Below, piece after piece: positions 32,300-47,007 of a DNA stretch of 64,000 nt. The stretch spans positions 14,816 to 78,815 of the forward strand of contig CAWDYX010000020.1 of the NCBI GenBank assembly GCA_963806575.1. The letters are read 5' to 3'. Made by a program: the position numbers and the translations under genes. The notes under the pieces were generated by a model. The model was not told the origin of the DNA, made no database searches, and saw nothing but the letters and a program-made list of their open reading frames with translations. Origin of the DNA: an uncultured Chloroflexia bacterium (GTDB taxonomy: Bacteria; Chloroflexota; Anaerolineae; Anaerolineales; Villigracilaceae). The first letter of the stretch is position 1. Each line of letters starts with the position of its first letter.

Positions 32300-33367
32300 T
32301 TAGGAATGCCGCGTACTGCCGCGCTCGAGGCCAACTAAATAACGGCGGTAAGTGGAAAAATCGTCCAATACCATGCCGGTACCGCGCACCACGCAGGTCA
32401 GCGGATCTTCAGCGACCCAGGCGTGTAAATTCAATTCATCCGAGAGACGGTCGGCCAACCCCTGCAGCAACGACCCACCCCCTGCCAGGCAAATACCATT
32501 GTCCATCAGGTCGGCCACAATTTCGGGTGGGACTTCATCCAGGGCGTCTTTGATCGTGTCAACGATCACCCCGACTGATTGTGAAAGCGCCTCACGCACC
32601 TCAATGGAAGAAATCTCAATGGATTCAGGCAGGCCCGTTACCAGGTTACGTCCGCGCACCTCTACCGTCTTCTCGACCGGAAGAGGAAAAGCCGAACCAA
32701 TTTCCCATTTTACTTGCTCGGCAATACGTTCACCGATAAGCACATTATATTTATTTCGGACGTATTGGACGATATCCTGATCCATTTCATCGCCCGCCAC
32801 GCGCAGAGACCTGGAAATGACCACGCCACCCATGGACAAGACCGCCACTTCGGTCGTCCCTCCGCCGATATCCACGACCATCGAGCCGCGTATTTCGGAT
32901 ACTGGCAGACCGGCCCCCAGTGCCGCGGAAGTCGGTTCCTCGATAAGATAGGCCTCGCGTGCACCAGCGGACATGCATGCATCGTAAACAGCGCGCTTCT
33001 CAACCTCGGTCACACCGGATGGAATGCCAATTACCACACGCGGGCGCGGCAGTGGCACTACACTTTGCTCGTGTACTTTTCCGATGAAATATTCCAACAT
33101 GGCCTCTGTTATTTCAAATTCTGAGATGACACCATCTCGCACTGGACGCACCACGATAATGTTGCCTGAAGTCCGCCCGACCATTTCCTTGGCATCCAGA
33201 CCAATGGCCATTGGCTGGCGGGAACGCTTGTCTATGGCTACCCATGAAGGTTCATTTATTACGATACCCTTTCCCCGGACATGGACAAGTGTATTTGCAG
33301 TACCCAAATCGATACCAATATCCAGGGAAAAAAGGCCCAGAAGCCAATTGAGTGGGTTAAAAGCCAA
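32300..33367 (-). CDS. mreB: rod shape-determining actin homologue MreB
   Basis: IGIDLGTANTLV, EPSWVAI, VVDIGGGTTEVAV and LAGGGSLLQG motifs. Confidence 0.95.
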   Translation of the reverse strand: MAFNPLNWLLGLFSLDIGIDLGTANTLVHVRGKGIVINEPSWVAIDKRSRQPMAIGLDAKEMVGRTSGNIIVVRPVRDGVISEFEITEAMLEYFIGKVHEQSVVPLPRPRVVIGIPSGVTEVEKRAVYDACMSAGAREAYLIEEPTSAALGAGLPVSEIRGSMVVDIGGGTTEVAVLSMGGVVISRSLRVAGDEMDQDIVQYVRNKYNVLIGERIAEQVKWEIGSAFPLPVEKTVEVRGRNLVTGLPESIEISSIEVREALSQSVGVIVDTIKDALDEVPPEIVADLMDNGICLAGGGSLLQGLADRLSDELNLHAWVAEDPLTCVVRGTGMVLDDFSTYRRYLVGLERGSTRHS

Positions 33368-33490
33368 AGTGGGATGCTCCTACGTGGAATTTCCAGCTTT
33401 TTGATTATACCATGGGGCTTAAAATGACGATTTAAGGATGTTTTTAAGGTTTAAATGGACTAGAAGAAGGCGTTAAGCGAATATACGGCA

Positions 33491-36400
33491 CTATGCGATT
33501 CGTTTCAATGCCAGCATCGTCAGATCATCCGCAGCGGGGAGCGAGTCCATGAACTGGTTCACGGAAGCCTCAAGCGTGTCCAGCACCCCACGCGCCGGGG
33601 ATGTTTCTGCCATCTTCAACACCTCCATCAGGCGCGCCTCCCCGTAAGGTTCATCTTCAGGCGAGAAAGCTTCCGTCAGTCCGTCGGTATACAACAAAAG
33701 AAGATCGTCGAGACCGAGCGAGATGGTCCGTTCACCGATCGAAAAGTCCTCGATGATACCTAAAGCTGCTCCCGTCCGGCGCAAACTCTCGAGCGTCTTC
33801 CCCGCCTTGTTCATCCAAACGGGAGGATTATGCCCGGCATTGGCAAAAGTGAACGCCCCACTTTCCAATGAGAGAACGCCATATACCGCTGTCACGAACA
33901 TCTCCTGGCGATTATCCGGAATGATCAGGGCATTGACGCGGTGCAAGACCTCGGCCGGAGAGGCGGTATCATTAACAACGGCCCGTACCAGGGTGCGCGT
34001 AAGGGCCATGAACAGGGCAGCCGGCATGCCTTTATCGGAAACGTCAGCAATTAACAAACCCAGCTTTCCGCCCGGTAGTTCAATCACATCGTAAAAATCT
34101 CCGCCCACTTGCCGCGCGGTCAGCCAGGTGGCAGCCAGTTCCCAGCCAGGGAATTCAGGCAGGTGCTCTGGCAGGAAGGTTTTTTGGATCTGCCGGGCAA
34201 GCTCAACTTCATGTTCGAGGCGTTCGCGAACCACCATTTCGAGTTGAAGATGCTCGTTCTGAATGCTTAGTACCACCTGCTGGGCAATGCTGTTGACAAT
34301 CTCCACGCGTTTCAAGCGGAAGCGGCGTACATCCGCATCTTCTTCGACGAGCATGACACCATAAAAATCATTCCGGATTACCAGCGGGAAACCAATCAAT
34401 AAATGTTCCCCGGTCTGCAAGGTGTACATGGTTTCCTGCTCATTGCTTGCTAATGCCGGGGTCAGCCAGTCCACAGGGACGGAGGGCGCCAGCAGGCCGA
34501 CGGTCATCTTTGCCCCCTCTCGCACAGCATCCAACAGGGGGAAATCACCGGGGAGGAAGTCGCGTCCCAATATGCTTGGCTGAACATCCTCCGTCAATCC
34601 ATAGGCTTGGGCCGGATGAAAACAGCCTGCCTCCCAAAGGAAGATGGCACACGCCTTAACTCCGACCAGGATGGGTGTGATGCGGACAACACTCCCGATC
34701 ATCTCTTCCAAACTGTTCGAGTTGGCGACTGCCTGGGCCACCTGCAAGAGGGCTGCCGAGGCATAGGCTTGTTCCTGAGCTGCATCATACAGACGGACAT
34801 TCTCGATGGCGACAGATGCATAATTCCCAAAGGTGGAGGTGATGGCCTGGGCCTCGTGGCCATACCGACCCGGTGCATGATGTGTAAGAGTCAGTACGCC
34901 TAGGGGACGGTCACCCGCGCGCAGGGCCGTGGAAATGGAAGAATAATCAGCAGAGAAACCGCGCGCCGCGCCGGTTGGTCCGATCGGATCTTCCGGCTTG
35001 CGAATGACCGGTTGTTGAGAAGCCAGCGTGGAGACGAGATAGTCATACGATTCCGGCCAGTGATGAATTGCATCCTCCACATCCAACCTCTCGGCACCAT
35101 GAATGTGAGCCAGATAGAGCTCCTCGCCTTCCAACAGCCATACAGCCGCCACCTCACAAGGCAGATTGTGCTCCAATTCGTGCAGAACACTGTCCAGCAC
35201 ATCATCCAAGCCCACTTCAGCCGAGATGGATCCAGTCACTTCGCGCAGGCTGTCTGCAACCTGGCGTCTCCAGCGTTCGGTTTGGTACAGGTCGGCATTA
35301 TGGATGGCCGAAGCGACGCTGTCGGCCAGGGCTTCGCACAGGAAATGGTCTTCCTCGGTAAAGGCATCGATATGGTCGCTCTGCAGGTCCAGCACGCCTA
35401 CAACCCGGTTATCGAAGACCAGCGGGATGGTCATTTCAGAACGGGTATCTTCAGGGGAAAACGGAGAAGGCTGGTAACGCGGTTCCTTCGTTACGTCGTT
35501 GGTCAGGATGGCCTGCCCTGTGCGTGCCACCCAGGCAATGATGCCTGCATCATTATCCAGGTCAAGTACAGACCCTTTTAAGGAAGCGCTGCTGGCCCCA
35601 CTCCCGGCTTCGTATATGATCTGACGCCGGTTGGGATGTACGCTAAAGAGATGAACGTATGGGAAATCCAAACGCTCATGGATGAGAACAGCCACTTTAA
35701 TGAGCAACTCTTCCAGATCAAGAATGGAGGTTATGTCATTGCTGACTTCTGCCACCATTTCGAGATGTTCAGCACGCGTGCGCAACTCGTCATACAGGCG
35801 TACACTATTGATGGCTATGGCAATCGTATCGGCCAAAGCCCGAAAGACCAGCAGGTCATTCGGGTGGAATGCCCCCAGACGATCAGACTGCACATCCAAC
35901 ACCCCCAGGATCTGACCCTCAATTTTCAAAGGAAGGACGGCTTCAGACTGGGTCTCCGGCAGCAGATCGAGGAACCGGAAACGCGGCTCGGTATGAACAT
36001 CATTCGTGATGGCCTCCTCACCGGTCCGGGCGACTGATCCTATCAAACCATCCCCCAAACGGATTTTGAGTGGCTTGCCACGACCGCGCGCCTGCCCGGC
36101 GCTCGAACGGAAATTCAGGAATTCCTGGCCTTTCACATGGGTGAAGAGCGCCACATAATAGTAATTAAATGTGCGCTGGATAAGTTTGGTGATCCGCCTG
36201 GTTAATACGTCCAGGTCGAGTACATTGGCTATCTGGGCGTTAACCCGGCGGACAAGGGTCAACTGCTCAACCCGCCACTGGTCCACGGCGAAACGGTGCG
36301 CAGCCACCAGCGCAAGCGATACATGCCCGGCCAACCCTTCCAGAATTTCAATTTCCTTTTTTTGGAACGGCTTGGCAGGACGGCTCACCTGGAGCACGCC

Positions 36401-37135
36401 CATGCAGACATCCCCATTCTTTAGCGGGAACGCAAGCAGTCTCCTTTGCCCCTTTGCAGGATAGGCAATCCCCGTTTTATATGTCTCGAACATCGGCCCA
36501 TCAGGTGGTTGTAGTGGGAATAAAGGCGTCTGGTTCAGACCGGGAAGGCGAAACAGGTTTTCATCCAGCCACAGTTCTGCCTGGCCATTCAGGAGACGGG
36601 CAGCAGCCTCCAGAATGAGGTCACGCCGGGCGGCAAGGGATTCCTTCTGCATCAGCTCATCCCCCAACTGGATGATCTGCCGCCATGTCGTGTCGACCGG
36701 TTCGAATTGAGATTTCAGCTTGCCCGGTTTCAGGCGTTTTACCATCGTAAGAACATTGCCCGATTCCCCCAGCGATTCGAAGTGGACCTCATCCATAAGC
36801 TGCCTCATCAGGAAAACGCCCAGTCCGCCGATGGCTCGGTCATCAATATTTGCTTTCAGGTCCGGGGTACGGACTGTGAAGGGATCAAAAGGTTTTCCGT
36901 GGTCGCGCAATACGAGCGTCAGGCAGACGTCGTTGGATTCACAAGTGAGTTCAATCTCTCCCAGGCCTTCTCCCTGATAGGCATGTTCGATAATATTGGT
37001 ACATGCCTCATCAACAGCCAGTTCAACGGCATAGGTTTCGGAATCATCCATGCCGGCATCGCGGGCTGCCTGGGTGGCAAACCCGCGGATGGTATCCAAC
37101 TGGTCAAATCTGGCAGGAAAAATCGCCGTGCGCAT
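33491..37135 (-). CDS. multidomain sensor: RsbW/SpoIIAB-like serine kinase, multiple GAF domains and a PP2C (SpoIIE/RsbU-type) phosphatase
   Basis: The N-terminus has LAVDEACTNIIEHAY...LRDHGKPFDP (anti-sigma-type HATPase). About 800 aa of repeated GAF-like units follow. The C-terminus has GGDFYDV...IADVSDKGMPAAL...NAGHNPP...LYTDGLTEA. Confidence 0.85.
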   Translation of the reverse strand: MRTAIFPARFDQLDTIRGFATQAARDAGMDDSETYAVELAVDEACTNIIEHAYQGEGLGEIELTCESNDVCLTLVLRDHGKPFDPFTVRTPDLKANIDDRAIGGLGVFLMRQLMDEVHFESLGESGNVLTMVKRLKPGKLKSQFEPVDTTWRQIIQLGDELMQKESLAARRDLILEAAARLLNGQAELWLDENLFRLPGLNQTPLFPLQPPDGPMFETYKTGIAYPAKGQRRLLAFPLKNGDVCMGVLQVSRPAKPFQKKEIEILEGLAGHVSLALVAAHRFAVDQWRVEQLTLVRRVNAQIANVLDLDVLTRRITKLIQRTFNYYYVALFTHVKGQEFLNFRSSAGQARGRGKPLKIRLGDGLIGSVARTGEEAITNDVHTEPRFRFLDLLPETQSEAVLPLKIEGQILGVLDVQSDRLGAFHPNDLLVFRALADTIAIAINSVRLYDELRTRAEHLEMVAEVSNDITSILDLEELLIKVAVLIHERLDFPYVHLFSVHPNRRQIIYEAGSGASSASLKGSVLDLDNDAGIIAWVARTGQAILTNDVTKEPRYQPSPFSPEDTRSEMTIPLVFDNRVVGVLDLQSDHIDAFTEEDHFLCEALADSVASAIHNADLYQTERWRRQVADSLREVTGSISAEVGLDDVLDSVLHELEHNLPCEVAAVWLLEGEELYLAHIHGAERLDVEDAIHHWPESYDYLVSTLASQQPVIRKPEDPIGPTGAARGFSADYSSISTALRAGDRPLGVLTLTHHAPGRYGHEAQAITSTFGNYASVAIENVRLYDAAQEQAYASAALLQVAQAVANSNSLEEMIGSVVRITPILVGVKACAIFLWEAGCFHPAQAYGLTEDVQPSILGRDFLPGDFPLLDAVREGAKMTVGLLAPSVPVDWLTPALASNEQETMYTLQTGEHLLIGFPLVIRNDFYGVMLVEEDADVRRFRLKRVEIVNSIAQQVVLSIQNEHLQLEMVVRERLEHEVELARQIQKTFLPEHLPEFPGWELAATWLTARQVGGDFYDVIELPGGKLGLLIADVSDKGMPAALFMALTRTLVRAVVNDTASPAEVLHRVNALIIPDNRQEMFVTAVYGVLSLESGAFTFANAGHNPPVWMNKAGKTLESLRRTGAALGIIEDFSIGERTISLGLDDLLLLYTDGLTEAFSPEDEPYGEARLMEVLKMAETSPARGVLDTLEASVNQFMDSLPAADDLTMLALKRIA

Positions 37136-37145
37136 AGGAATAACG

Positions 37146-37177
37146 AGGCCGCCTCACAGCCCGAAAGTCGAGGCGGC
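37146..37177 (-). other. GC-rich intercistronic hairpin between the STAS gene and the sensor gene
   Basis: 9-bp perfect stem GGCCGCCTC / GAGGCGGCC, with no clear U-run. Confidence 0.4.
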
Positions 37178-37205
37178 CCGAACTTAGGATGGACATTCGG
37201 ACAGG

Positions 37206-37541
37206 TTAGAAACTACCAACCGCCGCGGTAACGTCGTCAAATATTCTAAAAAGTGGTGTAAAACCGGTCAATTCCAGGGCTTCCATGATTCTCTTGGGTA
37301 CTGCAGCCAGTATCATCTCGCCACGGTTATAGCGCTTGCAGTTCCGCTGCCCGATGAGCAAAGCCCGGAACCCGGCGCTGGACATATACTCCAATTCGCC
37401 CATATCAAAGACGATTTTGAACTGGCCGTCGTGGTTAAGCATCTCGATGGCCTTGGACAGGTCGGGGGCAGTGTAACTATCCACCTTGCCCTTTGCACTG
37501 AGCAAGTCACAATGTTTATAATGCCTCGTTGTGATTTCCAT
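37206..37541 (-). CDS. STAS-domain anti-sigma-factor antagonist (RsbV/SpoIIAA-like)
   Basis: 111 aa with a conserved phosphorylatable Ser context (LEYMSSAGFRALL) and a C-terminal ELTGF motif. Confidence 0.85.
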   Translation of the reverse strand: MEITTRHYKHCDLLSAKGKVDSYTAPDLSKAIEMLNHDGQFKIVFDMGELEYMSSAGFRALLIGQRNCKRYNRGEMILAAVPKRIMEALELTGFTPLFRIFDDVTAAVGSF

Positions 37542-37586
37542 TTGGCCTCCGTTCTGGTTGCTGGTCAGAAATTATATCACGAGAGA

Positions 37587-38912
37587 TTACAGGCCTGCTC
37601 CGAAGATTTCGCCGCCGAGTTTGTATCCGGCCGCTTCCAGGCGCGGCGTGAAGAGCGGTCGCATCTTGGTTGGGCGCAATAGGCCAGTGATTTTGCCTTC
37701 CGGCGTAACACCCGTCTGCTCAAACTTGAAGATATCTGTCAATGTGATCACATCACCTTCCATCCCGGATAGTTCGGTGATGTGGGTCATCCAGCGGGAA
37801 CCATCTGGAAAGCGTGCGAGATGAACAATCAGGTTTATGGCTGCGGCAATCTGCTTGCGGATGGCCAGAAGAGGCATGTCCAGCCCGGCCATCATCGACA
37901 TCGTTTCAAGGCGGGAGGTGCCATCGCGCGGTGAATTGGCATGCAGGGTGGTCAGTGACCCGGTATGTCCGGTGTTCATGGCTTGAAGCATATCCATTGC
38001 CTCGCCGCCGCGTACCTCGCCGACCACAATCCGGTCGGGGCGCATACGCAGGGCATTCCGGACCAGTTCGCGCACGCCAACAGCCCCAGTTCCATCCACA
38101 TTGGGAAGTTTCGTCTCCAAACGTACTACATGTTTCTGTTTGAGCTTCATTTCGACGGCATCCTCAATCGTCACGATCCGCTCATTATCAGGGATAAAGC
38201 CCGAAAGGGCATTCAGTACGGTGGTCTTGCCGGAACTCGTATTACCTGTCACCAGGATATTCAAACGCGTCACTACACAGGCTTCCAGAAATTTCGCCAT
38301 GTATGTGGTCATTGCGTTCATGGCGATCAGATCATCCATGGTCATCTTGGTCTGCAGAAACTTGCGGATGGTGACGTGTGGACCGTCCACGGCCACTGGC
38401 GGGATGACCACATTGACACGCGAGCCGTCTGGCAGGCGGGCATCGGCAGTTGGGTTGTCCGAGTCCACCCGGCGGCCCAGCGGGCTCACGATCCGGTCAA
38501 TGATGCGCAGGAGATGCTCATTATCGTCGAATTGAACGTCCGTCTCGAGCAATTCCCCGTTGCGTTCCACGAAAACATGCTTGGCACCATTTACCATGAT
38601 TTCACTGATCTCAGGATCAGGCAGGAGCAAATCAATGGGACCATAACCGATCAAATCAGACAGCGCGGAATTAATGATCCGGTCGCGCAGGTCGGGCTTG
38701 AGTCCCGCCTTGGTGTTTGTATACACCTCGAGCAGCAGGGTGCGCAATAAGTCCCGGTCGGGCGGTTTCAAAGTGGATTGAGGCTGCATTTCAGGTCTGA
38801 CCGCATCGATCAGGTATTCCTTCAGCTTCACCAGACGCGGGTCTGAAGTGATGAACGCACTGGCACGGTAGATCTCCGACATGGTTGCTTCCTTGGGCAT
38901 GACTCCTGCCAT
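37587..38912 (-). CDS. CpaF/TadA-type type II/IV secretion ATPase
   Basis: Walker A VTGNTSSGKTTVLNAL, Asp box, Walker B and His box (TGHTGSLTTLHANS). The true start may be ATG 38882 (MSEIY). Confidence 0.85.
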   Translation of the reverse strand: MAGVMPKEATMSEIYRASAFITSDPRLVKLKEYLIDAVRPEMQPQSTLKPPDRDLLRTLLLEVYTNTKAGLKPDLRDRIINSALSDLIGYGPIDLLLPDPEISEIMVNGAKHVFVERNGELLETDVQFDDNEHLLRIIDRIVSPLGRRVDSDNPTADARLPDGSRVNVVIPPVAVDGPHVTIRKFLQTKMTMDDLIAMNAMTTYMAKFLEACVVTRLNILVTGNTSSGKTTVLNALSGFIPDNERIVTIEDAVEMKLKQKHVVRLETKLPNVDGTGAVGVRELVRNALRMRPDRIVVGEVRGGEAMDMLQAMNTGHTGSLTTLHANSPRDGTSRLETMSMMAGLDMPLLAIRKQIAAAINLIVHLARFPDGSRWMTHITELSGMEGDVITLTDIFKFEQTGVTPEGKITGLLRPTKMRPLFTPRLEAAGYKLGGEIFGAGL

Positions 38913-39086
38913 CAGATGCCGGTGGGGCTTTGCAGGTTCTTTTCACTGGCAAACGCAGGATCCTTCACTGTAGTATAGCATAGAGGCAATCTTGATCGCA
39001 ATAAACTGACAAAAAACGTTTTTGTAAGGATAATATTTCTTCAGTACATACTGATAAGGGATAACCATGTAGAAATGATATAGTGC

Positions 39087-39177
39087 TGACATCCCCCGAT
39101 ACATCGGGAATCCTCACCGCCGTCCGGGTGGGTCCGGCGCGGCGGAACCCTGCGGATCCCGTCAGGTCCGAAAGGAA
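39087..39177 (+). repeat. truncated duplicate of the SRP RNA promoter and 5' half (left direct repeat)
   Basis: 91 nt align with 42224-42314 with 3 mismatches. The -35 and -10 elements are degraded (CTGACA / AATCCT), and the copy stops inside the conserved GGTCCGAAAGGAA apex. Confidence 0.85.
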
Positions 39178-39299
39178 ACATTTCTTTGTCTGAAATAGCT
39201 GACTTCTTGTCAAAAAAAAGAACCGGTTTCCTGGGAATTGCTGGATATATGAGAAAATGGGCGGTCAATAATCGGCTGCCCATGACAACAAACTTGCTC

Positions 39300-40253
39300 T
39301 TATTTTACCTGCACCAGCACTGCTCTTACGATTATGCGGTATTTGTAGGAATTGCTGGTTTCATCATAACCACGGCAGGTAACCAGCGTGACCCAGGATA
39401 GGTCTTCGTGCTTGAGCAAGGTTGCCGTAGCGTCCGGCGAGACCTGTAGCACACTCCGGACTTCGTAGACGTATTGTACGCCCCAGGCATGGACGATGAT
39501 TTCATCCCCATACCATAACCCATTCAAGTGCACGAATGGTCCCGGTCGGCCGTAGGCATCATAAACATGACCGGTCAGTACCGAGTTCCCGGAATGGGTC
39601 GGGAAAGCCGACCCATTCAGCCATCCGGCATCATTCCCCAGCCAGGATACATCCCATGTCCCATCCTCGGATTGAGGTACACCCACGATCGGCAACTCCA
39701 CACCCATCCGCGGGATCTCCAGCCAAAGGGTACCCAGGTTGGCATAGCGAATGGATGGCTGGGTCAGAAAAGTCACCCTGTTTGGGGCAAAACCAGTGCT
39801 CGGGAGGCTGACAGCCTTTGGCTTAGACCAGGTGGCACTGGCAGAGCCCACGTTTTGTTCGCCAGGATCGGTGGTGTTGCCATTCCCATTCAGATCAGAA
39901 TCAATGGTAGCCTTATTGGTTGCTGAGGTCACACCAGAGTTTAGGGAGGTTTTGAATTGAATAATAAGCTCATTCTTCGCAGCGGCTACATTCTTCGCTC
40001 CAAAATCAGGAGCGATCGATCCGGTCCACACCACCCGTCCACGAGGGTAGGTCAGGCTCGGTTTTTCGTACAGGCAGCTCGTGGTTGTTGTGAGAGTAGA
40101 CGCACCCATGCAGCTCAGACTTCCTTCCACATAGGTCGTGCCTGCCGGGATAGAATCATGGACCGCAGCATTCACCGCCACATGATTTAACCCATTGATC
40201 CAATACATTGTCCAGACCAGGTTCGGCAACCCGGATGAATCCACTACTTTCAC
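39300..40253 (-). CDS. DUF11-like beta domain, LPSTG motif and sortase catalytic domain (C-terminal part of a longer gene)
   Basis: Sortase His (LTGHVYD), Cys (VTLVTCRG) and Arg (YRIIVRAV). LPSTGF lies immediately N-terminal to the sortase fold. The frame stays open upstream to 40697 as Thr/Pro repeats with no canonical start, and is the same frame as ORF 40698..41891. Confidence 0.8.
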
Positions 40254-40289
40254 GCCGAACGGCGGGTTGTAAAGGTGCCAGCGGGGGGT

Positions 40290-41297
40290 AATTGTCGGCG
40301 TTTGAGTGGCGGTCGAAGAGGGGGTAAAGGTCGGTCTGGGCGTCGGGGTGTAGGTTGGGGTAAGGGTGATGGTCGCGGAGGGCGTTAGGGTCAGCGAGGC
40401 CGTCGGGGTGTAGGTTGGAGTATCTGTGTCGGTCGGGGTTAACGTCGGGGTATCTGTCGGCGTATTCGTCGGCGTGGAGGTCGGAGTTGCGGTATTGGTC
40501 GGCGTGAAGGTCGGAGTATTAGTGTCCGTCGGGGTATAGGTCGGCGTGTGTATCTGTAGGCGTGTAGGTTGGAGTATCCGTGTCTGTCGGCGTGTAGGTT
40601 GGAGTATCCGTGTCTGTCGGGGTGTAGGTTGGAGTATCCGTATGCGTCGGGGTGTAGGTTGGGGTATGAGGGTAATGGTCGCGTGAGGGCGTTAGGGTCA
40701 GCGAGTGTCCGTCGGGGTGTAGGTCGGAGTATTTGTGTCGGTCGGGGTTAACGTCGGGGTATCTGTCGGCGTATTCGTCGGCGTGGAGGTCGGAGTTGCG
40801 GTATTGGTCGGCGTGAAGGTCGGAGTATTAGTGTCCGTCGGGGTGTAGGTCGGTGTATCCGTATCCGTCGGGGTGTAGGTTGGAGTATTGGTGTCGGTCG
40901 GGGTTAACGTCGGGGTATCTGTCGGCGTATTCGTCGGCGTGGAGGTCGGAGTTGCGGTATTGGTCGGCGTGAAGGTTGGAGTATCCGTGCCTGTCGGCGT
41001 GTAGGTTGGTGTATCCGTATCCGTCGGCGTATAGGTCGGAGTATTGGTGTCGGTCGGGGTTAACGTCGGGGTATCTGTCGGCGTATTCGTCGGCGTGGAG
41101 GTCGGAGTTGCGGTATTGGTCGGCGTGAAGGTCGGAGTATTAGTGTCCGTCGGGGTGTAGGTGGTGTACGTTGGCGTGAAGGTCGGAGTATCCGTGTCCG
41201 TTGGAGTGTGGGTCGGTGTATCCGTCGGCGTAAAGGTCGGAGTATCTGTGTGCGTCGGGGTATAGGTCGGGGTTTCCGTGTTCGTCGGAGTTGCAGT
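40290..41297 (-). repeat. tandem 156-bp (52-codon) coding repeats encoding a (T-P-T-x) linker
   Basis: The block GTCGGGGTTAACGTCGGGGTATCTGTCGGCGTATTCGTCGGCGTGGAGG recurs at 40431, 40741, 40897 and 41053. The last three are spaced 156 nt apart. 30-nt sub-repeats lie at 40560-40650. Confidence 0.9.
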
Positions 41298-41891
41298 GGG
41301 TAAAGTCGTGTCTTGCACCCACAGCCAGTATTCATGACAATCGCGAATGGAATGTCCGTAAAGGGGTCCCCATTGGGTCTCCTCAACATAATACCAGCCA
41401 TCGGCAGGGGCAGTCCATGTAATCAAACTATCCCGGTAGAAGTAATACCCCATGTACCAGGTAGTCCACCCCACATCATCATCGAAAGCTAACTGCGTAA
41501 CGCCATCCGGGGCATAGAGGTAGAGGTATGTGTCATTGGCGGCAACATCACCTGAATTGATGTCATTTATCAGCTGAGTCCTGATCTCATAATCATCGCC
41601 ACTGAATGCATAAAACGTTACCCAGTCCTGCTCGCTTGGAGGATTCGTGTTTATATGAAATTGGCGTGTACCATCGGTGGGGACAATACTAGCTTGCAGG
41701 TAGGTGTTATCAGGTTCGTAACTATCATTTTCACATAAAGGAGGTGGTTGGTCTCTCGACGCCGCCAAGACAGGCCGGGTCTGGGCAGCAAAGGTAAGCA
41801 CCAGGATCAACGCCACAATTCGCCCCATAAGCAAAAATAGTTTGCCTGGTTGATCTTTAGGCTTCTTTATATGCATGTCTCTTTCCACCAA
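40698..41891 (-). CDS. secreted protein: signal peptide, PPC (pre-peptidase C-terminal)-like domain and long Thr/Pro repeat linker (N-terminal part of the longer gene)
   Basis: Signal/anchor [23 protein letters not shown]-like block [11 protein letters not shown]...[17 protein letters not shown]...[14 protein letters not shown] repeats then run to TGA at 40698-40700. Confidence 0.8.
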
Positions 41892-42222
41892 ACACCTTCC
41901 AGGTTACGGGGAGGACGGCCCAGACACAAAAGAGACAATGTGATTAATCCCTTTTCAAATTTAAAATAGGAAAAAGGGCAAGAATACCGTCAGCGTCCCG
42001 CAAATCTGGCTCGACTCAATAATAACCTAAAGAAATCACTTCCTTTTTGGACCAATGGTAATTCGGCTCTGCGGGGATAAGAACAATAACAAAAAAAAGT
42101 ACCTTTTACGGTAAAAAGGTTGTAATAATTATTTGCCTATATGATTATATTCTAATATTGTCTAATGTATATAAATAAATTGATTCCTTTTCTTCTGGAT
42201 AACATGAGGAGACCAAACGCGG

Positions 42223-42251
42223 TTGACATCCCCCGATACATCGGGTATCCT
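42223..42251 (+). promoter_or_regulatory. sigma-70-type promoter of the SRP RNA gene
   Basis: TTGACA (42223-42228), a 17-nt spacer and TATCCT (42246-42251). Confidence 0.7.
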
Positions 42252-42257
42252 CACCGC

Positions 42258-42366
42258 CGTCCGGGTGGGTCCGGCGCGGCGGAGCCCTGCGAATCCCGTC
42301 AGGTCCGAAAGGAAGCAGCGGTAAGAAGGTGTCTCCGGGTGCCGCCGGGTCTCCTGCCCGGACATT
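42258..42366 (+). ncRNA. ffs: signal recognition particle RNA (small, 4.5S type)
   Basis: Conserved domain IV GTCAGGTCCGAAAGGAAGCAGC with a GAAA tetraloop. The 5' GTCCGGG pairs with the 3' CCCGGAC. The ends are approximate. Confidence 0.85.
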
Positions 42367-42435
42367 TTATTTAATGTCATCACAAGTTCGCTGATATAAT
42401 ACCCCCCATCATTATCCTATTTCAGGAGTTCGTGT

Positions 42436-43857
42436 ATGGCCTTCAAAATCACCTTTGGTACCGATGGCTGGCGCGGTGTCATTGCCGAGGATTACACCTT
42501 CGATAACGTCCGTCGCTGCACTCAGGGTTTCGCCAATTACCTGGTCGAAAAAGGCCGGCAGGGTCAATGGGTGGTGGTTGGGCATGATAAACGTTTCGAT
42601 AGTGAGTTCTTTGCCGCGGCGGTAGCCGAAGTGCTGGTCGGCAACGGGCTGAAAGTGTACCTGACGAATGGAGCCACTCCCACCCCGGTGATTGCCTTCT
42701 CTGTGGTGGACAAAAAGGCCGGTGGAGCGGTCAACATCACCGCCTCGCATAACCCCGGCACCGACAACGGTTTCAAGGTCCGCAACGAGTTCGGTGGCGC
42801 CATCGACCCGGATGGGCTGCTGAAGATCGAGGCGCTCATTCCCGCTTCCGTGGCAGCGGTGAAACGGAAAGCTTATAAAAACGCCCAGGCGGCCGGAGAG
42901 ATAGTCATGTTTGACCCGGTTAAGCCCTACGAAGCCCATATCAACAAGCTGATCGACCTGCAGCCCATCCAGCAGGCCGGCCTGACCGTGCTGGTGGATT
43001 GCATGTGGGGCAATGGTGCAGGTTATTTCCCGCGCCTGCTGGCCGGCGGCAAGACCAAAGTAATCGAGATCCATAACCAGCGCAACCCGCTCTTTCCCGA
43101 AATGATCCGCCCCGAACCCATCCCTCCCAACATCAACGTTGGCCTGCAGGCCACCCTCGAAAACCATGCCGATGTGCTGCTCATCACCGATGGCGATGCC
43201 GACCGTGTGGGCGTGGGCGATGAGAACGGGCAGTTTGTCAACCAGCTGCGCGTCTACGGTTTGCTGGCATACTACCTGCTGGAGGTCCGCGGGCTGCGCG
43301 GTGCCATTGTCAAGACCCTCTCCACCACCGGCATGCTCAACAAACTTGGGCAGATCTACAACGTCCCGGTCTATGAAACCGGTGTGGGCTTCAAATATGT
43401 GGCTCCCAAGATGCTCGAGACGGATGCTCTGATCGGCGGCGAGGAAAGCGGCGGCTACGCTTTCCGCGGTAATGTGCCTGAACGTGATGGCATCCTGGCC
43501 GGGTTGTACATCCTCGACCTGATGGTACGGCTCGGCAAGCAGCCTTCGGAACTGCTCAAGTTGCTCTTCGCCAGGGTGGGAGGCGAGTACTTCTACGACC
43601 GCATCGACCGCCCCTTCAGCGGCAGCCACGCTGACCGTAAAAAGATGATCCTGGACGCAAACCCGCAGACCATCGGCGGCTTGAAAGTGGTCCAACTCGT
43701 CACGGTGGACGGCTTCCAGTTCAAACTCGAAGATGGCGGTTGGATGCTCATCCGCTTTTCTGGTACCGAACCCATCATGCGTGTCTATTGCGAGACGATG
43801 CACGCTGATAAAGTGCAGGCCATCCTGCAGGACGGTTTGAAGATCGCCGGCCTTTAA
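42436..43857 (+). CDS. alpha-D-phosphohexomutase family (phosphoglucomutase/phosphomannomutase)
   Basis: FGTDGWRG, the active-site Ser loop [14 protein letters not shown], the metal loop TDGDADR and GGEESGG. Confidence 0.9.
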
Positions 43858-43930
43858 TAGACTAGTGTCAAGGGTTCCGGTGTCAGGTGTCAACAAACAC
43901 TGGCACACTTGATACGGGACAACGGGATAC

Positions 43931-44788
43931 GTGACCCTTACAGACACCCATTGCCATTTGGACATGGACAAATTCGACTCCGACCGGGAAGCCGTGCTGG
44001 AACGTTCTGCCCAGGCCGGTGTGGTCCGCATTTTGATCCCGGGACTCAACCTCGCCTCCAGCCGGACCGTCCTCAAACTGGCCGGAAGCCATCCCATGCT
44101 CTTCGCGGCGGTTGGTGTCCATCCCACCGAGGCAGGCACTTGGACAAAAGAAACCAGGGATGAACTGAGAAACCTCTTCAAGCCCTCAGGCACGTCAGAA
44201 ACCTCAGGTTCGTCAAGAATCGTCGCCATCGGCGAAATCGGGCTGGATTATTACTGGGACTCCGCGCCTCACGATCTCCAGAAAACCGTCCTGCAGATGC
44301 AGCTGACTCTGGCGGCTGAAGCTGGTTTTCCGGTCATTCTGCATATGCGCGAAGCCAGGGATGAACCGAACGGGAATTGCGCCGGAGATCTTCTGCAAAT
44401 CCTGGAGGAATGGTGCTCAGGACTGCGCGCTGCGAAGAGTCCGCTGGCAGAGCGACCCGGTGTACTGCACTCCTTTTCCGGGACTCTGGAATCGGCGCAG
44501 GCCGCGCTGAGTCTCGGATTCTACCTCGGGGTGAGCGGCCCCGTCACCTTCGAGAACGCCGCCAGCCGACAGGAAATCGCCGCGGCGTTACCTCTGGATC
44601 GTGTTCTACTTGAAACGGATGCCCCCTTCCAGGCTCCCCAACCGCATCGCGGAAAACGCAACGAACCGGCCTATGTTCGCCTGATTGCTGATAAAATTGC
44701 CTTGCTCCATTCATGCAGCTTGGAGCGGGTCGCCGCAGTCACCAGCGGGAATGCCCGCAGGCTTTTTGGTTGGAAAGAGACAGCTTGA
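43931..44788 (+). CDS. tatD: TatD-family metal-dependent hydrolase
   Basis: LTDTHCHLD at the N-terminus, then GEIGLDY, HMRE, VLHSFSG and ETDAP. Confidence 0.85.
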   Translation: MTLTDTHCHLDMDKFDSDREAVLERSAQAGVVRILIPGLNLASSRTVLKLAGSHPMLFAAVGVHPTEAGTWTKETRDELRNLFKPSGTSETSGSSRIVAIGEIGLDYYWDSAPHDLQKTVLQMQLTLAAEAGFPVILHMREARDEPNGNCAGDLLQILEEWCSGLRAAKSPLAERPGVLHSFSGTLESAQAALSLGFYLGVSGPVTFENAASRQEIAAALPLDRVLLETDAPFQAPQPHRGKRNEPAYVRLIADKIALLHSCSLERVAAVTSGNARRLFGWKETA

Positions 44789-45750
44789 ACACAGCCCCTA
44801 TTTTTGCACCCGTTCAGGTCAACCTGCAGGAAGTCGAAACGCTCCTGCATTCCCAGGCCGAGGATGCCCATCCGGAATTGCGAACCGCGCTGGAGCATTT
44901 GCTCTCTTCCGGAGGGAAGCGCATCCGCCCGGCGGTCGGCCTGTTGACCGGTCAAATGCTTGGGGCGCCCCATGATAAACTCCTGACCCTGGCGGCCTCG
45001 GTGGAGATGCTGCACACCGCCACCCTTGTCCATGATGATTTGATTGATGGGGCGTTGCTTCGGCGGGGTATGCCGACCCTGAACGCTCATTGGTCACCCG
45101 CCGCCACCATCCTGACCGGGGACTATATGTTCGCGCGCGCTGCCAAACTGGCAGCCGAGTCGGATAATTTGTTATTAATGAAACTCTTCGCCGATACGCT
45201 GGCAACCATCGTCAATGGCGAACTGACCCAATTATTTGCCGCCCGCGGGGTGATCAGCCGCGCGAATTACAACAAACGCATTTACGCCAAAACCGCTTCG
45301 CTCTTCGAACTGACCACGCAGGCCGCTGCAATCATCAGTCCGGTTGATGAGGCCATGGTGGAAACCATGCGGCAATACGGTTACCATCTGGGGATGGCTT
45401 TCCAGATTGTGGATGACATCCTGGATTTCACCGGGGAGCAGGAAACAGTCGGCAAGCCGGTCGGCTCGGACCTGTTGCAGGGCCTGGTGACGCTCCCGGC
45501 CATTCTTTATGCGGAAGCTCATCCCTACGACCCGGATGTGCTGTGTCTCACGGGTGGTTGCTACACAGAGCACGAACGCATGGAACGGTTGGTACAATCC
45601 ATCCGGGAAAGCGATGCGGCCACGCAATCCATGAAAGAAGCGCAAGCTTTCATACAAAGGGCGCTGGAAATCCTGCGGACGGTGCCGGCAGGGCAGGAGC
45701 GGCAGGCTCTGGAAGACTTGACCGGTTACATCGTAAACCGGAGTATTTAA
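44785..45750 (+). CDS. trans-polyprenyl diphosphate synthase
   Basis: First DDxxD (LVHDDLID) and second DDxxD (QIVDDILD). I placed the start at TTG 44785, overlapping the tatD stop; the ORF track starts at 44713. Confidence 0.85.
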   Translation: MNTAPIFAPVQVNLQEVETLLHSQAEDAHPELRTALEHLLSSGGKRIRPAVGLLTGQMLGAPHDKLLTLAASVEMLHTATLVHDDLIDGALLRRGMPTLNAHWSPAATILTGDYMFARAAKLAAESDNLLLMKLFADTLATIVNGELTQLFAARGVISRANYNKRIYAKTASLFELTTQAAAIISPVDEAMVETMRQYGYHLGMAFQIVDDILDFTGEQETVGKPVGSDLLQGLVTLPAILYAEAHPYDPDVLCLTGGCYTEHERMERLVQSIRESDAATQSMKEAQAFIQRALEILRTVPAGQERQALEDLTGYIVNRSI

Positions 45751-45755
45751 CATCG

Positions 45756-46176
45756 ATGCCACCCTACTCCCTTCGCCGCTTGTTGTGGGGCGGCCCAGTC
45801 GCGACGGTTGCTGCAATTACTGGCAAATCTGTTGTATTTTGCAGTTACAAAGGCTCTCGGTGAGCGATATATTCTGCCGCTCGACGGGGACAGTTCCCGT
45901 TTCAGCCCAATGCCTGTCGCAATGCCTGTAATAGCCATCCTGGTCGCGGGTCTCCTGGCGACTGTTTTCTTTGGTCTGCTTATCCGCTTCAACCGCAAAC
46001 CGGCAACCGTTTTCCTGTCGGTAGCCGTGGCTGCCCTCATCCTCTCTTTTGGGGGACCCTTCAACCTGCCGGCTGCATCCTTGATAACAAAGCTCCTCTT
46101 GTGTGGAATGAATATCATTGCTGCAGTGATTATCACAGTTGGAATATTGCTCATGAGCCATAGAAACGCCACATGA
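45756..46176 (+). CDS. DUF6069-like small membrane protein; N-terminus in a different frame
   Basis: ATG 45756 gives MPPYSLRRLLWGGPVATVAA in one frame. ORF 45808..46176 continues as LLANLLYFAVTKALG... plus 3 TM helices. This implies an indel at about 45800-45815. Confidence 0.55.
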
Positions 46177-46189
46177 GTCATAAAGAACG

Positions 46190-46232
46190 AAAAAAAGAGT
46201 GAGTGGCGCAATGCGCCGCTCACTCTTTTTTT
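46190..46232. terminator. bidirectional intrinsic terminator
   Basis: A7, GAGTGAGTGGCGC, loop aat, GCGCCGCTCACTC, then T7. Confidence 0.8.
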
Positions 46233-46244
46233 GATATAAATTAC

Positions 46245-46627
46245 AAGAGGCGTCGATGGGATTTGCGTAGTCCCGCACAGCGGGAAACCCATGATGGCAG
46301 GGATCAGAAGCACAATCACCAAATCAAAACGAGCCTTTACAAACTCGTTTTATAAGAGGCGTCGATGGGATTTGCGCAGTCCCGCGCAGCGGGAAAGTCC
46401 CACGCAGTGGGAAAGTCCCGCACAGCGGGAAACCCACGTTGGCAGGGATCAGGAGCATAACCATCAAATCAAAACGAGCCCTTACAGACTCGTTTTTAAG
46501 AGGCGTCGATGGGATTTGCGCAGTCCCGCGCAGCGGGAAAGTCCCACGCAGTGGGAAACCCATGTTGGCAGGGATCAGAAGCACAATCACCAAATCAAAA
46601 CGAGCCTTTACAAACTCGTTTTTTAAG
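46245..46627 (-). repeat. three tandem pseudo-copies (109, 144 and 127 bp) of the tRNA-Cys 3' end plus its terminator hairpin
   Basis: Each unit (minus strand) ends in AAATCCCATCGACGCCTCTT, identical to the tRNA-Cys T-loop/acceptor 3' end plus trailer. It is followed by AAAAACGAG..CTCGTTTT. Units begin at 46245, 46354 and 46498, and the true tRNA follows at 46625. Confidence 0.9.
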
Positions 46628-46699
46628 AGGCGTCGATGGGATTTGAACCCATGATGAGGGTTTTGCAGACCCTTGCCTTAGCCACTTGGCCACGACGCC
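46628..46699 (-). tRNA. tRNA-Cys (GCA)
   Basis: Acceptor GGCGTCG/CGACGCC, anticodon stem AGGGT/ACCCT with loop CTGCAAA, and T-arm ATGGG-TTCAAAT-CCCAT. CCA is not encoded. Confidence 0.95.
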
Positions 46700-46778
46700 A
46701 TTCTTCATTTGCTGATTGAAAATTACGGATTGCTGATTGACCGTCTGCAACCATCAATCTGCAATCCGCAATCGTCAG

Positions 46779-46851
<73 letters not shown>

Positions 46852-46875
46852 GGAGGCCCCTACTTTCAGGCCGAG

Positions 46876-46948
46876 TGCCGAGAGCCAGGATCGGACTGGC
46901 GACACCGCAATTTTCAGTCGCGTGCTCTACCAACTGAGCTATCTCGGC
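46876..46948 (-). tRNA. tRNA-Phe (GAA)
   Basis: Acceptor GCCGAGA/TCTCGGC, D-arm GCTC-AGTTGGTA-GAGC, anticodon loop CTGAAAA and T-arm GCCAG-TCCGATC-CTGGC. Confidence 0.95.
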
Positions 46949-46978
46949 CTGGACACGAACTGTTTTTGAAGCGGGAGG

Positions 46979-47007
46979 ATTTTACACGCAGAGAGGGAGA
47001 TTGTCAA
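46979..47007 (-). promoter_or_regulatory. sigma-70-type promoter of the tRNA Phe-Gly-Cys operon
   Basis: On the minus strand: TTGACA (47007-47002), a 17-nt spacer and TAAAAT (46984-46979), about 25 nt upstream of tRNA-Phe. Confidence 0.7.

What the first reader, a model, noticed from the sequence alone, without database searches (positions are those of the whole stretch)
39087..42314. 3.05-kb insertion bracketed by about 91-nt direct repeats of the SRP RNA promoter and 5' half
Positions 39087-39177 and 42224-42314 are about 97 percent identical (3 mismatches). The right copy continues into a complete 4.5S RNA with a near-consensus promoter (TTGACA-17-TATCCT). The left copy has degraded -35 and -10 hexamers and breaks off inside the conserved GGUCCGAAAGGAA apex. 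Between them lie only the sortase-fusion gene and a visibly AT-rich 330-bp stretch (41.9-42.2 kb). A partial duplicate of the target gene at one end is the classic scar of site-specific integration. Such integration is usually seen at the 3' ends of tRNA or tmRNA genes. Use of ffs, and of its 5' half including the promoter, is unusual. No integrase remains.
Basis: partly seen in the sequence, partly recalled or inferred. Interest (0 to 1): 0.7.

Follow-up and report, generated by a model that had tools for sequence, protein, structure and literature searches.

The report
Gene inserted inside SRP RNA gene
A 3-kb piece of DNA carrying one surface-protein (sortase-fusion) gene sits inside the essential signal-recognition-particle RNA gene of an Anaerolineales bacterium, and the gene still works because the incoming DNA brought its own copy of the promoter and first half of the RNA; no integrase is present, so how it got there is unresolved.

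Summary
39087-39180 and 42224-42317 are a 94-nt direct repeat with 4 mismatches. It runs from the -35 hexamer of ffs to 7 nt past the apical GAAA tetraloop. Only the right copy continues into a full SRP RNA (Rfam 63.6 bits).

Comparative data show an insertion into ffs, not a local duplication. Relatives L093, L099 and L103 have cpaF - Haem_bd gene - one intact ffs - PGM. A separately assembled relative (L097, insert 2.6% diverged) has both copies and the same junction. Its orphan copy lies directly after the Haem_bd gene, where ffs normally sits.

The orphan copies are decaying (7/94 differences between strains, against 1/94 for the working copies). Both carry a -10 T>A change.

The cargo is one sortase-fusion gene with its own AT-rich upstream region. 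The insert has no integrase and no terminal inverted repeats. The genes scanned within about 18 kb are housekeeping.

Site-specific integration is therefore only one candidate. The two copies share a promoter spacer found in no other relative. Another relative (L100/L101) has a sortase-fusion gene natively beside ffs. Both points favour recombination with closely related chromosomal DNA.

Known ffs integration (phage phiEf11) uses the 3' part. This is a new variant of a known kind, of moderate interest.

The parts
37587..38912 (-). cpaF/TadA-like secretion ATPase gene; native left neighbour
   Evidence: Pfam T2SSE E=4e-66. Collinear with L011 and L103.
38913..39071 (.). Native cpaF-Haem_bd intergenic DNA. 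The Haem_bd gene itself is deleted in this window.
   Evidence: 38976-39059 aligns at 75% to the cpaF-Haem_bd intergenic region of L103, up to the Haem_bd ribosome-binding site. tblastn finds no Haem_bd gene anywhere in the window.
39086..39114 (+). Decayed orphan ffs promoter (CTGACA-17-AATCCT)
   Evidence: Sequence. All functional copies in relatives have TTGACA and TATCCT. The -10 T>A change is shared with the L097 orphan copy.
39087..39180 (+). Left repeat copy: the orphaned native ffs promoter plus 5' half of SRP RNA, ending 7 nt after the GAAA tetraloop
   Evidence: No Rfam hit. No stable fold (z = -0.18). It sits at the native ffs position by comparison with L097, L093, L099 and L103.
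39181..39299 (-). Left end of the insert: 3' flank of the sortase-fusion gene, with a hairpin plus T-run seen by eye
   Evidence: Found only in the window and L097 (98% identical). The junction ...AGCA|T(A/T)TCTTTGTCTG is the same in both.
39300..41891 (-). Cargo: secreted sortase-fusion protein gene (signal peptide, N-terminal domain, Thr-Pro repeats, C-terminal sortase domain). Split here by two compensating frameshifts near 40550-40700.
   Evidence: ORFs and Pfam. Frame analysis. Intact 690-aa orthologue in L097. Thr-Pro repeat array 40400-41288.
41892..42223 (.). AT-rich (GC 0.37) right end of the insert: upstream region of the cargo gene, abutting the -35 of the working ffs
   Evidence: Composition. 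Promoter-like site on the minus strand at 42171-42144. Present only in the window, L094, L097 and L098.
42223..42251 (+). Working ffs promoter TTGACA-17-TATCCT
   Evidence: Both hexamers are conserved in all relatives.
42224..42317 (+). Right repeat copy: promoter plus 5' half that came with the insert, fused to the native 3' half
   Evidence: 1/94 difference between the window and L097, which indicates purifying selection.
42263..42362 (+). Complete SRP (4.5S-type) RNA. By fold and the promoter position, the transcript probably spans about 42257-42364.
   Evidence: Rfam RF00169, 63.6 bits. Long hairpin, -58 kcal/mol. Terminator-like stem 42345-42361 plus T-run.
42436..43857 (+). Phosphoglucomutase/phosphomannomutase gene; native right neighbour
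   Evidence: Pfam PGM_PMM I-IV. Syntenic in 80 Anaerolineales loci.

Best explanation
A 3.04-kb cassette was inserted inside ffs, at the top of the SRP RNA hairpin. It holds one sortase-fusion gene with its own 3' flank and AT-rich upstream region. The incoming DNA ended in its own copy of the ffs promoter and 5' half. That copy is now fused to the native 3' half and forms the working gene. The native promoter and 5' half were left stranded 3.1 kb upstream and are decaying.

I think the most likely mechanism needs no dedicated integrase. Host recombination joined this chromosome to DNA from a very close relative, or from elsewhere in the same genome, in which a sortase-fusion gene lay directly upstream of ffs. 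That takes one homologous exchange in or beyond ffs plus one illegitimate join (...GGAAGCA|TWTCTTTG...). This is homology-facilitated illegitimate recombination, or equivalently a Campbell-type single crossover of a circular fragment through the 94-nt ffs homology.

Shown: the insertion, its boundaries, the native position of the orphan copy, empty sites in relatives, decay of the orphan copy, and the absence of mobility genes.

Inferred: the enzymology and the donor.
For: Insertion rather than duplication:
- In L097 the orphan copy directly follows the 3' end of the Haem_bd gene, with native-type upstream sequence (GGGGCTTATCTTGGAACTGAAATAGCG|TTGACA, compared with GGGGTTTATCTTGGAAATAAAAGTGCGG|TTGACA in L099).
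- In the window it follows the native cpaF-Haem_bd intergenic region.
- Empty arrangement cpaF - Haem_bd - ffs - PGM in L093, L099 and L103. L103 is collinear with the window over 14 kb.
- A single intact ffs in every other complete ffs locus examined.

Orphan copy non-functional and drifting:
- No 3' half, no Rfam hit, no stable fold.
- 7/94 differences between strains, against 1/94 for the working copy.
- All window-specific and L097-specific changes are derived relative to relatives.

Against a dedicated element and for ordinary recombination:
- No recombinase or transposase in the insert, and none among the ORFs scanned out to about 18 kb on either side. That neighbourhood is MreB, PBP2, polysaccharide synthesis and a two-component system.
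- No terminal inverted repeats.
- Both copies share the promoter spacer ...CCGATACATCG..., found in none of about 12 other native spacer types of the clade. The incoming copy therefore came from the same species-level lineage.
- L100/L101 carry a 3472-aa sortase-fusion gene divergent from ffs and about 270 nt upstream of it. L003 has a 920-aa one directly upstream of PGM. A sortase-next-to-ffs donor arrangement is therefore realistic.
- Sortase fusions of this type are common in this clade (408 hits at E<=1e-20).
Against: - No same-species donor with this particular sortase gene next to ffs, and without the orphan copy, was found. L100/L101 are a different species-level lineage with a different fusion protein.
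- The structure, a partial target gene repeated at both ends and the target precisely restored, is also exactly what site-specific integration leaves.
- The identity block starts at the first base needed for promoter function. That looks designed, although conservation among relatives also starts abruptly there.
- The same insert (2.6% diverged) sits in two different flank contexts, the window and L097. The right flank is more diverged than in L094 (6/93 against 0/118, p=0.007). This hints that the cassette moves.
- The non-repeat coding parts are mildly atypical in composition: GC 0.52 against 0.558, tetranucleotide distance in the 1.5% tail, and GC3 0.52-0.585 against 0.61-0.74 for neighbouring genes.
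Confidence: 0.45

Rival explanations
1. Relic or integrase-less satellite of a site-specific integrative element. Its attP mimics the ffs promoter plus 5' half, and its integrase crosses over at the apical loop of the SRP RNA gene. The integrase was later deleted, or acts in trans from elsewhere in the genome.
For: - Direct repeats made of part of the target gene, with the intact gene restored at one end.
- Empty sites in relatives.
- The identity block spans exactly what is needed to rebuild a promoter-driven 5' half.
- The RNA 5' half is 100% conserved in most of the related loci examined, so such a mimic would work in many hosts.
- The same insert occurs in two different flank contexts.
- Mild compositional deviation.
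- Precedents: phiEf11 integrates in ffs (PMC12540744); dusA islands replace a gene's 5' end and supply a putative promoter (PMC4482086).
Against: - No integrase in the insert or among the neighbouring ORFs scanned.
- A 3-kb, one-gene remnant that keeps both att copies would need tidy secondary deletions.
- No other instance in 13 metagenome contigs, 80 genome loci or 46 ffs-spanning ORFs. No hits in viral contigs, phage records or plasmid records.
- The incoming copy's promoter spacer matches the native copy and no other relative. That is unexpected for an element-borne mimic with its own history.
Confidence: 0.33
2. Repair-associated template switching within one genome (MMBIR-like). A break at the ffs apex was repaired by copying the sortase cassette from another locus and then re-entering ffs at the -35. 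This duplicated the intervening 94 nt.
For: It explains why both copies carry the same lineage-specific spacer. It explains the absence of any mobility gene and the single complete transcription unit copied.
Against: No second copy of the cassette or of its non-coding ends is in the 64-kb window or in any fetched locus. The rest of the genome could not be searched. Re-entry exactly at the -35 would be a coincidence, apart from selection for a working promoter. It does not explain the different flank contexts of the window and L097.
Confidence: 0.1
3. Old local tandem duplication followed by deletion, or an assembly chimera.
For: Direct repeats can arise from tandem duplication. Metagenome assemblies can be chimeric, and the window's cargo gene has frameshifts in a repeat array.
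Against: - The orphan copy's upstream flank is the native Haem_bd/cpaF flank. The working copy's upstream flank is unrelated AT-rich DNA. A duplication-plus-deletion would have to recreate the native Haem_bd-promoter junction exactly.
- Relatives lack the duplication.
- Two separately assembled contigs from other samples reproduce the arrangement (L097 with both copies, L094 with the right junction).
Confidence: 0.04

Closest known systems
Enterococcus faecalis phage phiEf11 integration into ffs (Stevens, Zhang and Fouts 2025, PMC12540744)
   Same: The target is the SRP RNA gene. The insertion is bracketed by a repeated ffs segment, and the gene is (partly) rebuilt from incoming sequence.
   Different: phiEf11 uses a 27-nt core at ffs nt 62-88, in the 3' part. 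It replaces the last 17 nt and has its integrase 74 nt from attP, in a full prophage. Here the repeat is 94 nt covering the promoter plus 5' half up to the apex, the insert is 3 kb with one gene and no integrase, and the host is a Chloroflexota bacterium.
Genomic islands and prophages at tRNA/tmRNA genes (Williams 2002, cited in PMC12540744; details from my own knowledge)
   Same: The element carries a copy of part of the RNA gene so that integration restores it. Crossover is often at a hairpin loop. A displaced partial gene marks the far end.
   Different: Those identity blocks run from the crossover to the 3' end of the RNA gene, so no promoter has to be supplied, and an integrase gene lies next to the att site. 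Here the block runs to the 5' end and includes the promoter, and no integrase is present.
dusA-specific integrases and their islands (Farrugia et al. 2015, PMC4482086)
   Same: Integration is into the 5' end of a gene. The island supplies the new 5' end, putative -35/-10 elements are seen upstream of dusA both before and after integration, and the original 5' end is left as a remnant.
   Different: The target there is a protein-coding gene, the att sequences are 21-bp semi-conserved repeats, a defined integrase family is present, excision was shown by PCR, and the islands are tens of kb.
Homology-facilitated illegitimate recombination in transformable bacteria (de Vries and Wackernagel 2002; Prudhomme et al. 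2002; from my own knowledge, not checked here)
   Same: One homologous anchor plus one illegitimate join inserts foreign or rearranged DNA without any mobility gene. The donor is related DNA.
   Different: It is usually accompanied by deletion of recipient DNA rather than a neat 94-nt duplication. Competence is unknown in Anaerolineales, and the donor was not observed.
Type I-F3 CRISPR-associated transposons that use ffs as a homing landmark (search hit PMC9723613; details from my own knowledge, paper not read here)
   Same: ffs is the chromosomal landmark.
   Different: As I recall, these insert downstream of ffs, not inside it, and carry tns and cas genes, terminal repeats and 5-bp target duplications. 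None of these features is present here.

Membership tests
Integrase-mediated integrative element at an RNA gene | Insert bracketed by direct repeats that are a segment of the target gene, one copy continuing into the intact gene | tested here: met
   94-nt repeat, 96% identical. The right copy continues into a full SRP RNA.
Integrase-mediated integrative element at an RNA gene | Tyrosine or serine recombinase gene inside the element next to one att site | tested here: not met
   The only real gene in 39181-42223 is the sortase fusion. No recombinase is among the ORFs scanned out to about 18 kb on either side.
Integrase-mediated integrative element at an RNA gene | Sporadic occurrence: precise empty sites in related genomes | tested here: met
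   Empty cpaF - Haem_bd - ffs - PGM in L093, L099 and L103, and a single intact ffs in every other complete ffs locus. These relatives are only 80-86% identical in DNA. No empty site was found at strain level.
Integrase-mediated integrative element at an RNA gene | Identity block extends from the crossover to the 3' end of the RNA gene | tested here: not met
   The block runs from the -35 to 7 nt past the apical loop, which is the 5' side.
Integrase-mediated integrative element at an RNA gene | Recurrence: the same att with different cargo or hosts | tested here: inconclusive
   The same cargo is seen in two flank contexts (window, L097). No other cargo was found at an ffs 5' half in any collection searched. 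The genome collection could not be scanned for this.
Integrase-mediated integrative element at an RNA gene | Excision to a circle and restoration of attB | not testable with these tools
   This needs read-level data from the source samples.
phiEf11-type ffs prophage | 27-nt core within ffs nt 62-88 with the integrase adjacent | tested here: not met
   The junction here is at about nt 60, with the identity on the 5' side, and there is no integrase (PMC12540744).
Tn7-like / CAST elements homing at ffs | Insertion downstream of ffs; tns genes; terminal repeats; 5-bp target duplication | tested here: not met
   The insert is inside ffs, the duplication is 94 nt, there are no terminal inverted repeats and no transposition genes.
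IS or transposon | Transposase, terminal inverted repeats, short target-site duplication | tested here: not met
   The alignment score of the two ends equals the shuffled expectation. There is no transposase ORF.
Tandem or segmental duplication | Both copies share flanking sequence on at least one side, or are adjacent | tested here: not met
   Left copy: native Haem_bd/cpaF flank. Right copy: unrelated AT-rich DNA. Beyond the repeat the sequences are unrelated on both sides.
Homology-facilitated illegitimate recombination product | One junction in homology shared with a related donor, one junction illegitimate, no mobility genes, and a donor arrangement that exists | tested here: inconclusive
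   There are no mobility genes. The copies share a lineage-specific spacer. A sortase-next-to-ffs arrangement exists in L100/L101. The actual donor and any microhomology at the join are unknown.

The most novel reading that the evidence does not exclude
Anaerolineales harbour a so far undescribed kind of site-specific element. Its recombinase crosses over at the apical tetraloop region of the SRP RNA gene, and the element carries the ffs promoter and 5' half so that it rebuilds this essential gene from the upstream side. That would be the mirror image of tRNA/tmRNA-type integration. The window and L097 would then be two integrations, or transfers, of an integrase-less cassette mobilised in trans.
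Probability: 0.25. Interest if true: 0.65.

Novelty: new variant of a known kind. Interest (0 to 1): 0.42.

Why it matters
ffs is single-copy and essential. In the literature found here, only one ffs integration site has been verified experimentally, and it lies in the 3' part of the gene.

This locus shows that the gene can be split at the most conserved part of the RNA, the Ffh-binding apex, and survive if a promoter plus 5' half is supplied in cis. It also gives a dated, two-strain view of how the orphaned half and its promoter decay.

If an integrase is behind it, this would extend the logic of RNA-gene integration to the 5' side and to SRP RNA in Chloroflexota. It would also offer a highly conserved landing site.

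If not, it is a clean natural example of recombination healing an essential RNA gene, and a warning. A partial target gene repeated at both ends of an insert is not by itself proof of site-specific integration.

Tried and rejected
- Exact-protein look-ups of PGM, cpaF and the 100%-identical sortase fragment P0005 found nothing on record.
- Two viral-contig scans with parts of the ffs 5' half gave 0 hits.
- blastn of 39000-42400 against phage records gave no match. Against plasmids it gave only Thr-Pro-repeat noise and one 60-nt ffs-like hit.
- The metagenome scan with a 32-nt ffs 5' pattern returned 13 contigs, all with a single intact ffs.
- I used the protein database as a stand-in DNA search, with the antisense ORF that spans ffs as query. 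It gave 46 ORFs, all over full-length ffs, each with a different upstream tail. None had the insert junction.
- A terminal inverted repeat test on the insert ends gave a chance-level score.
- The non-coding ends of the insert have no other copy in the window or in the 98 loci held at that point.
- The idea that the left copy's 15-20 nt upstream discriminates native from imported DNA was at first equivocal by hand count (after). It was settled only by L097, L099 and L103.
- L097's orphan copy shares T11 and A21 with L082. My hand estimate of coincidence is about 0.005 before, and about 0.04 after, allowing for the number of relatives compared. I left this as a hint, not a conclusion.
Full report
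**1. Observation**

The repeat finder on 37000-44500 returns one two-copy family of 94 nt, 39087-39180 and 42224-42317, 96% identical and 3137 nt apart. The four mismatches are at repeat positions 23, 61, 69 and 92.

The right copy begins inside TTGACA-17-TATCCT (42223-42251). It continues into a complete bacterial small SRP RNA (RF00169, 42263-42362, 63.6 bits against a gathering score of 40, model positions 1-97). That RNA folds into the expected long hairpin with an apical GAAA tetraloop (-58 kcal/mol).

The repeat ends at ...GGUCCGAAAGGAAGCA, 7 nt 3' of the tetraloop, inside the conserved AGCA of the symmetric loop. The left copy reads CTGACA-17-AATCCT and lacks the 3' strand. It gives no Rfam hit even at E<=1 and no stable fold.

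**2. What lies between the copies**

The 3043 nt from 39181 to 42223 contain three things:
- a 119-nt 3' flank;
- one minus-strand gene;
- a 332-nt AT-rich stretch (GC 0.367).

The gene encodes a signal peptide, an N-terminal domain with few homologues (4 hits), about 1 kb of Thr-Pro repeats and a C-terminal sortase domain (PF04203, E=2e-23).

In this window the gene is split by two compensating frameshifts about 120 nt apart in the repeats. The orthologue in L097 is an intact 690-aa ORF. The breaks are therefore either recent or sequencing errors.

There is no recombinase or transposase ORF, and the ends carry no terminal inverted repeats. The ORFs scanned out to about 18 kb on either side encode housekeeping proteins: MreB, PBP2, a GAF-PP2C/STAS module, PGM, TatD, a polyprenyl synthase ORF by layout, a two-component system and polysaccharide synthesis.

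**3. Organism and relatives**

PGM-anchored loci place the window in Anaerolineales. The closest genome locus, L001, has 92% amino-acid identity in PGM and about 79% DNA identity.

The ffs neighbourhood varies across the clade:

| Arrangement | Loci |
|---|---|
| STAS - ffs - PGM | L001, L102 |
| STAS - ffs (contig ends before PGM) | L083, L087, L088, L089 |
| cpaF - Haem_bd - ffs - PGM | L093, L103 |
| Haem_bd - ffs - PGM (contig ends before cpaF) | L092, L099 |
| Haem_bd - ffs (contig ends before PGM) | L082, L084, L090 |
| cpaF - Haem_bd - ffs - ygiQ-like - methylase-like - PGM | L011 |
| ffs - ygiQ-like - methylase-like - PGM | L046 |
| giant sortase fusion (opposite strand) - ffs - PGM | L100, L101 |

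L103 is collinear with the window from 33000 to 47000 at 80-83% identity.

In every relative, homology to the window's working ffs begins abruptly at (G)GTTGACA. The 46 antisense ORFs that gene callers placed over ffs in related metagenomes all have different upstream tails. The DNA just upstream of the -35 is therefore a hot spot for rearrangement.

**4. Insertion, not duplication**

Two close relatives of the window were found through the cargo protein.
- L094 (JGI 3300078566) matches 41200-42927 at 97.2%. It shows the same right junction, cargo - AT-rich - ffs - PGM.
- L097 (JGI 3300069939, 3508 nt) spans the whole structure. It has both repeat copies, the intact cargo gene and the same junction ...AGCA|TATCTTTGTCTGAAATAGCTGAC.

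In L097 the orphan copy lies immediately after the 3' end of the Haem_bd gene (...GGMPPAIYLPLHKNAQLTAAERQQLITGLTNTLLK*). Its upstream sequence is clearly homologous to that of the empty-site relative L099.

In the window the orphan copy follows the native cpaF-Haem_bd intergenic region, up to the Haem_bd ribosome-binding site (75% to L103). The Haem_bd gene itself is deleted.

So the orphan copy occupies the native ffs position, and the working copy's 3' half and PGM are the native right flank. Everything between, plus one copy of the repeat, is extra. A tandem duplication followed by deletion would have to recreate the native Haem_bd-promoter junction exactly, so I reject it.

Of the 18 other ffs-bearing loci, 16 have a single contiguous ffs, L090 is cut by its contig end, and only L097 also has an orphan 5' half.

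**5. State of the two copies**

| Comparison | Differences in 94 nt |
|---|---|
| Window working copy vs L097 working copy | 1 |
| Window orphan copy vs L097 orphan copy | 7 |
| Window orphan vs window working | 4 |
| L097 orphan vs L097 working | 8 |

For comparison, the insert's AT-rich non-coding DNA differs by 3.9% between the window and L097.

The working copy is under constraint and the orphan copy is drifting. Both orphans share T23A, which turns the -10 TATCCT into AATCCT, and G61A. At the window/L097 split the two copies therefore differed at only 2 of 94 positions. The event is recent relative to the clade, where PGM DNA is 14-20% diverged from the empty-site relatives.

**6. Mechanism**

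The final structure needs incoming DNA that carried a second promoter plus 5' half of ffs next to the cargo. Two families of explanation fit.

(a) Site-specific integration of an element whose attP mimics ffs from the -35 to the apex.
- In favour: the classic scar; empty sites in relatives; a block that covers exactly what is needed; an RNA 5' half identical in most of the related loci; mild compositional deviation.
- Also in favour: the same insert, 2.6% diverged, sits in two different flank contexts. L097 has Haem_bd and a 440-nt ffs-PGM spacer, and the window has neither. The right flank differs at 6/93 positions, against 0/118 for L094 (p=0.007).
- Against: no integrase anywhere nearby, a one-gene remnant, and no second instance in any collection searched.

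(b) Host recombination with closely related chromosomal DNA.
- In favour: both copies share the promoter spacer CC(C/T)GATACATCG(G/A)G. About 12 other native spacer types in the clade differ from it at 3-5 positions. The incoming copy therefore came from the same species-level lineage.
- Also in favour: sortase-fusion genes of this family are abundant in the clade. One lies natively beside ffs in L100/L101 and another beside PGM in L003.
- One homologous exchange plus one illegitimate join gives the observed structure without any mobility gene. A Campbell-type crossover of a circular fragment through the 94-nt homology does the same.

I give (b) about 0.45, (a) about 0.33 and intragenomic template switching about 0.1. 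The rest goes to duplication, artefact or something not considered.

The ffs arms are very highly conserved. Once formed, the cassette could also spread between lineages by plain homologous recombination. That would explain the two flank contexts under either model.

**7. Comparison with what is known**

ffs as an integration target was reported in 2025 for phage phiEf11. That site is a 27-nt core at nt 62-88, the 3' end is replaced, and the integrase is adjacent. The authors found no other prophage example and mention only bioinformatic predictions in Streptococcus pneumoniae (PMC12540744).

tRNA/tmRNA islands use the 3' side of the gene (Williams 2002, from my own knowledge). Replacement of a gene's 5' end by island sequence, with putative promoter elements still present upstream, is documented for dusA islands (PMC4482086). 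Type I-F3 CRISPR-associated transposons turned up in the literature search (PMC9723613). From my own knowledge they insert downstream of ffs.

The present case shares the healing logic of these systems. It fails the defining test for an integrative element, which is a recombinase gene, and it differs in the side of the gene used. I therefore file it as a new variant of a known kind, not as a member of any integrase family.

**8. Verdict**

The integrase reading is unproven and, on balance, slightly less likely than recombination with related chromosomal DNA. Interest is moderate (0.42).

The most novel reading still open is a 5'-side, SRP-RNA-specific integration system in Chloroflexota. I give it a probability of about 0.25, and it would deserve about 0.65 if true.

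Noticed in passing
window 40250-40760: The cargo gene is interrupted by two compensating frameshifts about 120 nt apart inside its Thr-Pro repeat array, while the L097 orthologue is an intact 690-aa ORF with fewer repeats. This is either a very recent pseudogene or long-read/assembly error in a repeat. The source annotation also splits the gene (P0005 269 aa, P0127 392 aa).
   Followed up: partly
L100 1205-8997 and L101 928-8720; L003 7222-9984: Sortase-fusion genes recur at this locus in relatives. A 3472-aa protein with a C-terminal sortase domain lies divergent from ffs and about 270 nt upstream of it in L100/L101. A 920-aa one lies directly upstream of PGM in L003, where no ffs is within 10 kb. 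The far end of the giant gene could not be fetched.
   Followed up: partly
upstream of the ffs -35 in L001, L011, L046, L081-L103; proteins P0128-P0173: Across this clade, sequence conservation starts abruptly at (G)GTTGACA of the ffs promoter, and the DNA immediately upstream is different in almost every lineage. Neighbours include the STAS gene, cpaF, the Haem_bd gene and a sortase fusion. The boundary looks like a hot spot for rearrangement.
   Followed up: partly
window 38986-39086 compared with L103 10300-10830: The window has lost the 142-aa Haem_bd (PF14376) gene that separates cpaF from ffs in relatives. The ribosome-binding site and about 15-20 nt next to the -35 remain. The first T of the orphan -35 is also changed (CTGACA).
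   Followed up: yes
L097 1-487 (minus strand); L100 380-830: A non-coding spacer of about 440 nt between ffs and the PGM promoter is present in L097, L100/L101 and several other relatives. It is absent from the window, L094, L099 and L001. Its first 100 nt or so are conserved (87-89%).
   Followed up: partly
window 42091-42130: An A8 run is followed by the near-palindrome ACCTTTTAC-G-GTAAAAAGGT and T-rich sequence. Read by eye, it looks like a weak, AT-rich bidirectional terminator between the cargo promoter region and the ffs promoter. The terminator scan did not report it because its stem lacks G-C pairs.
   Followed up: no
window 46378-46645 and 46627-46948: A 126-nt unit is repeated twice (89% identical) and contains 18-nt sub-repeats (AGTCCCGCGCAGCGGGAA). 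It lies immediately next to a tRNA-Cys / tRNA-Gly / tRNA-Phe cluster on the minus strand. The tRNA cluster is conserved in relatives, but the repeats were not examined there.
   Followed up: no
L099 6211-7941; L102 8169-9595: PGM and other genes in these ENA contigs are split into several called fragments. This looks like indel errors in long-read assemblies and is a reason for caution when calling pseudogenes in this data type.
   Followed up: no
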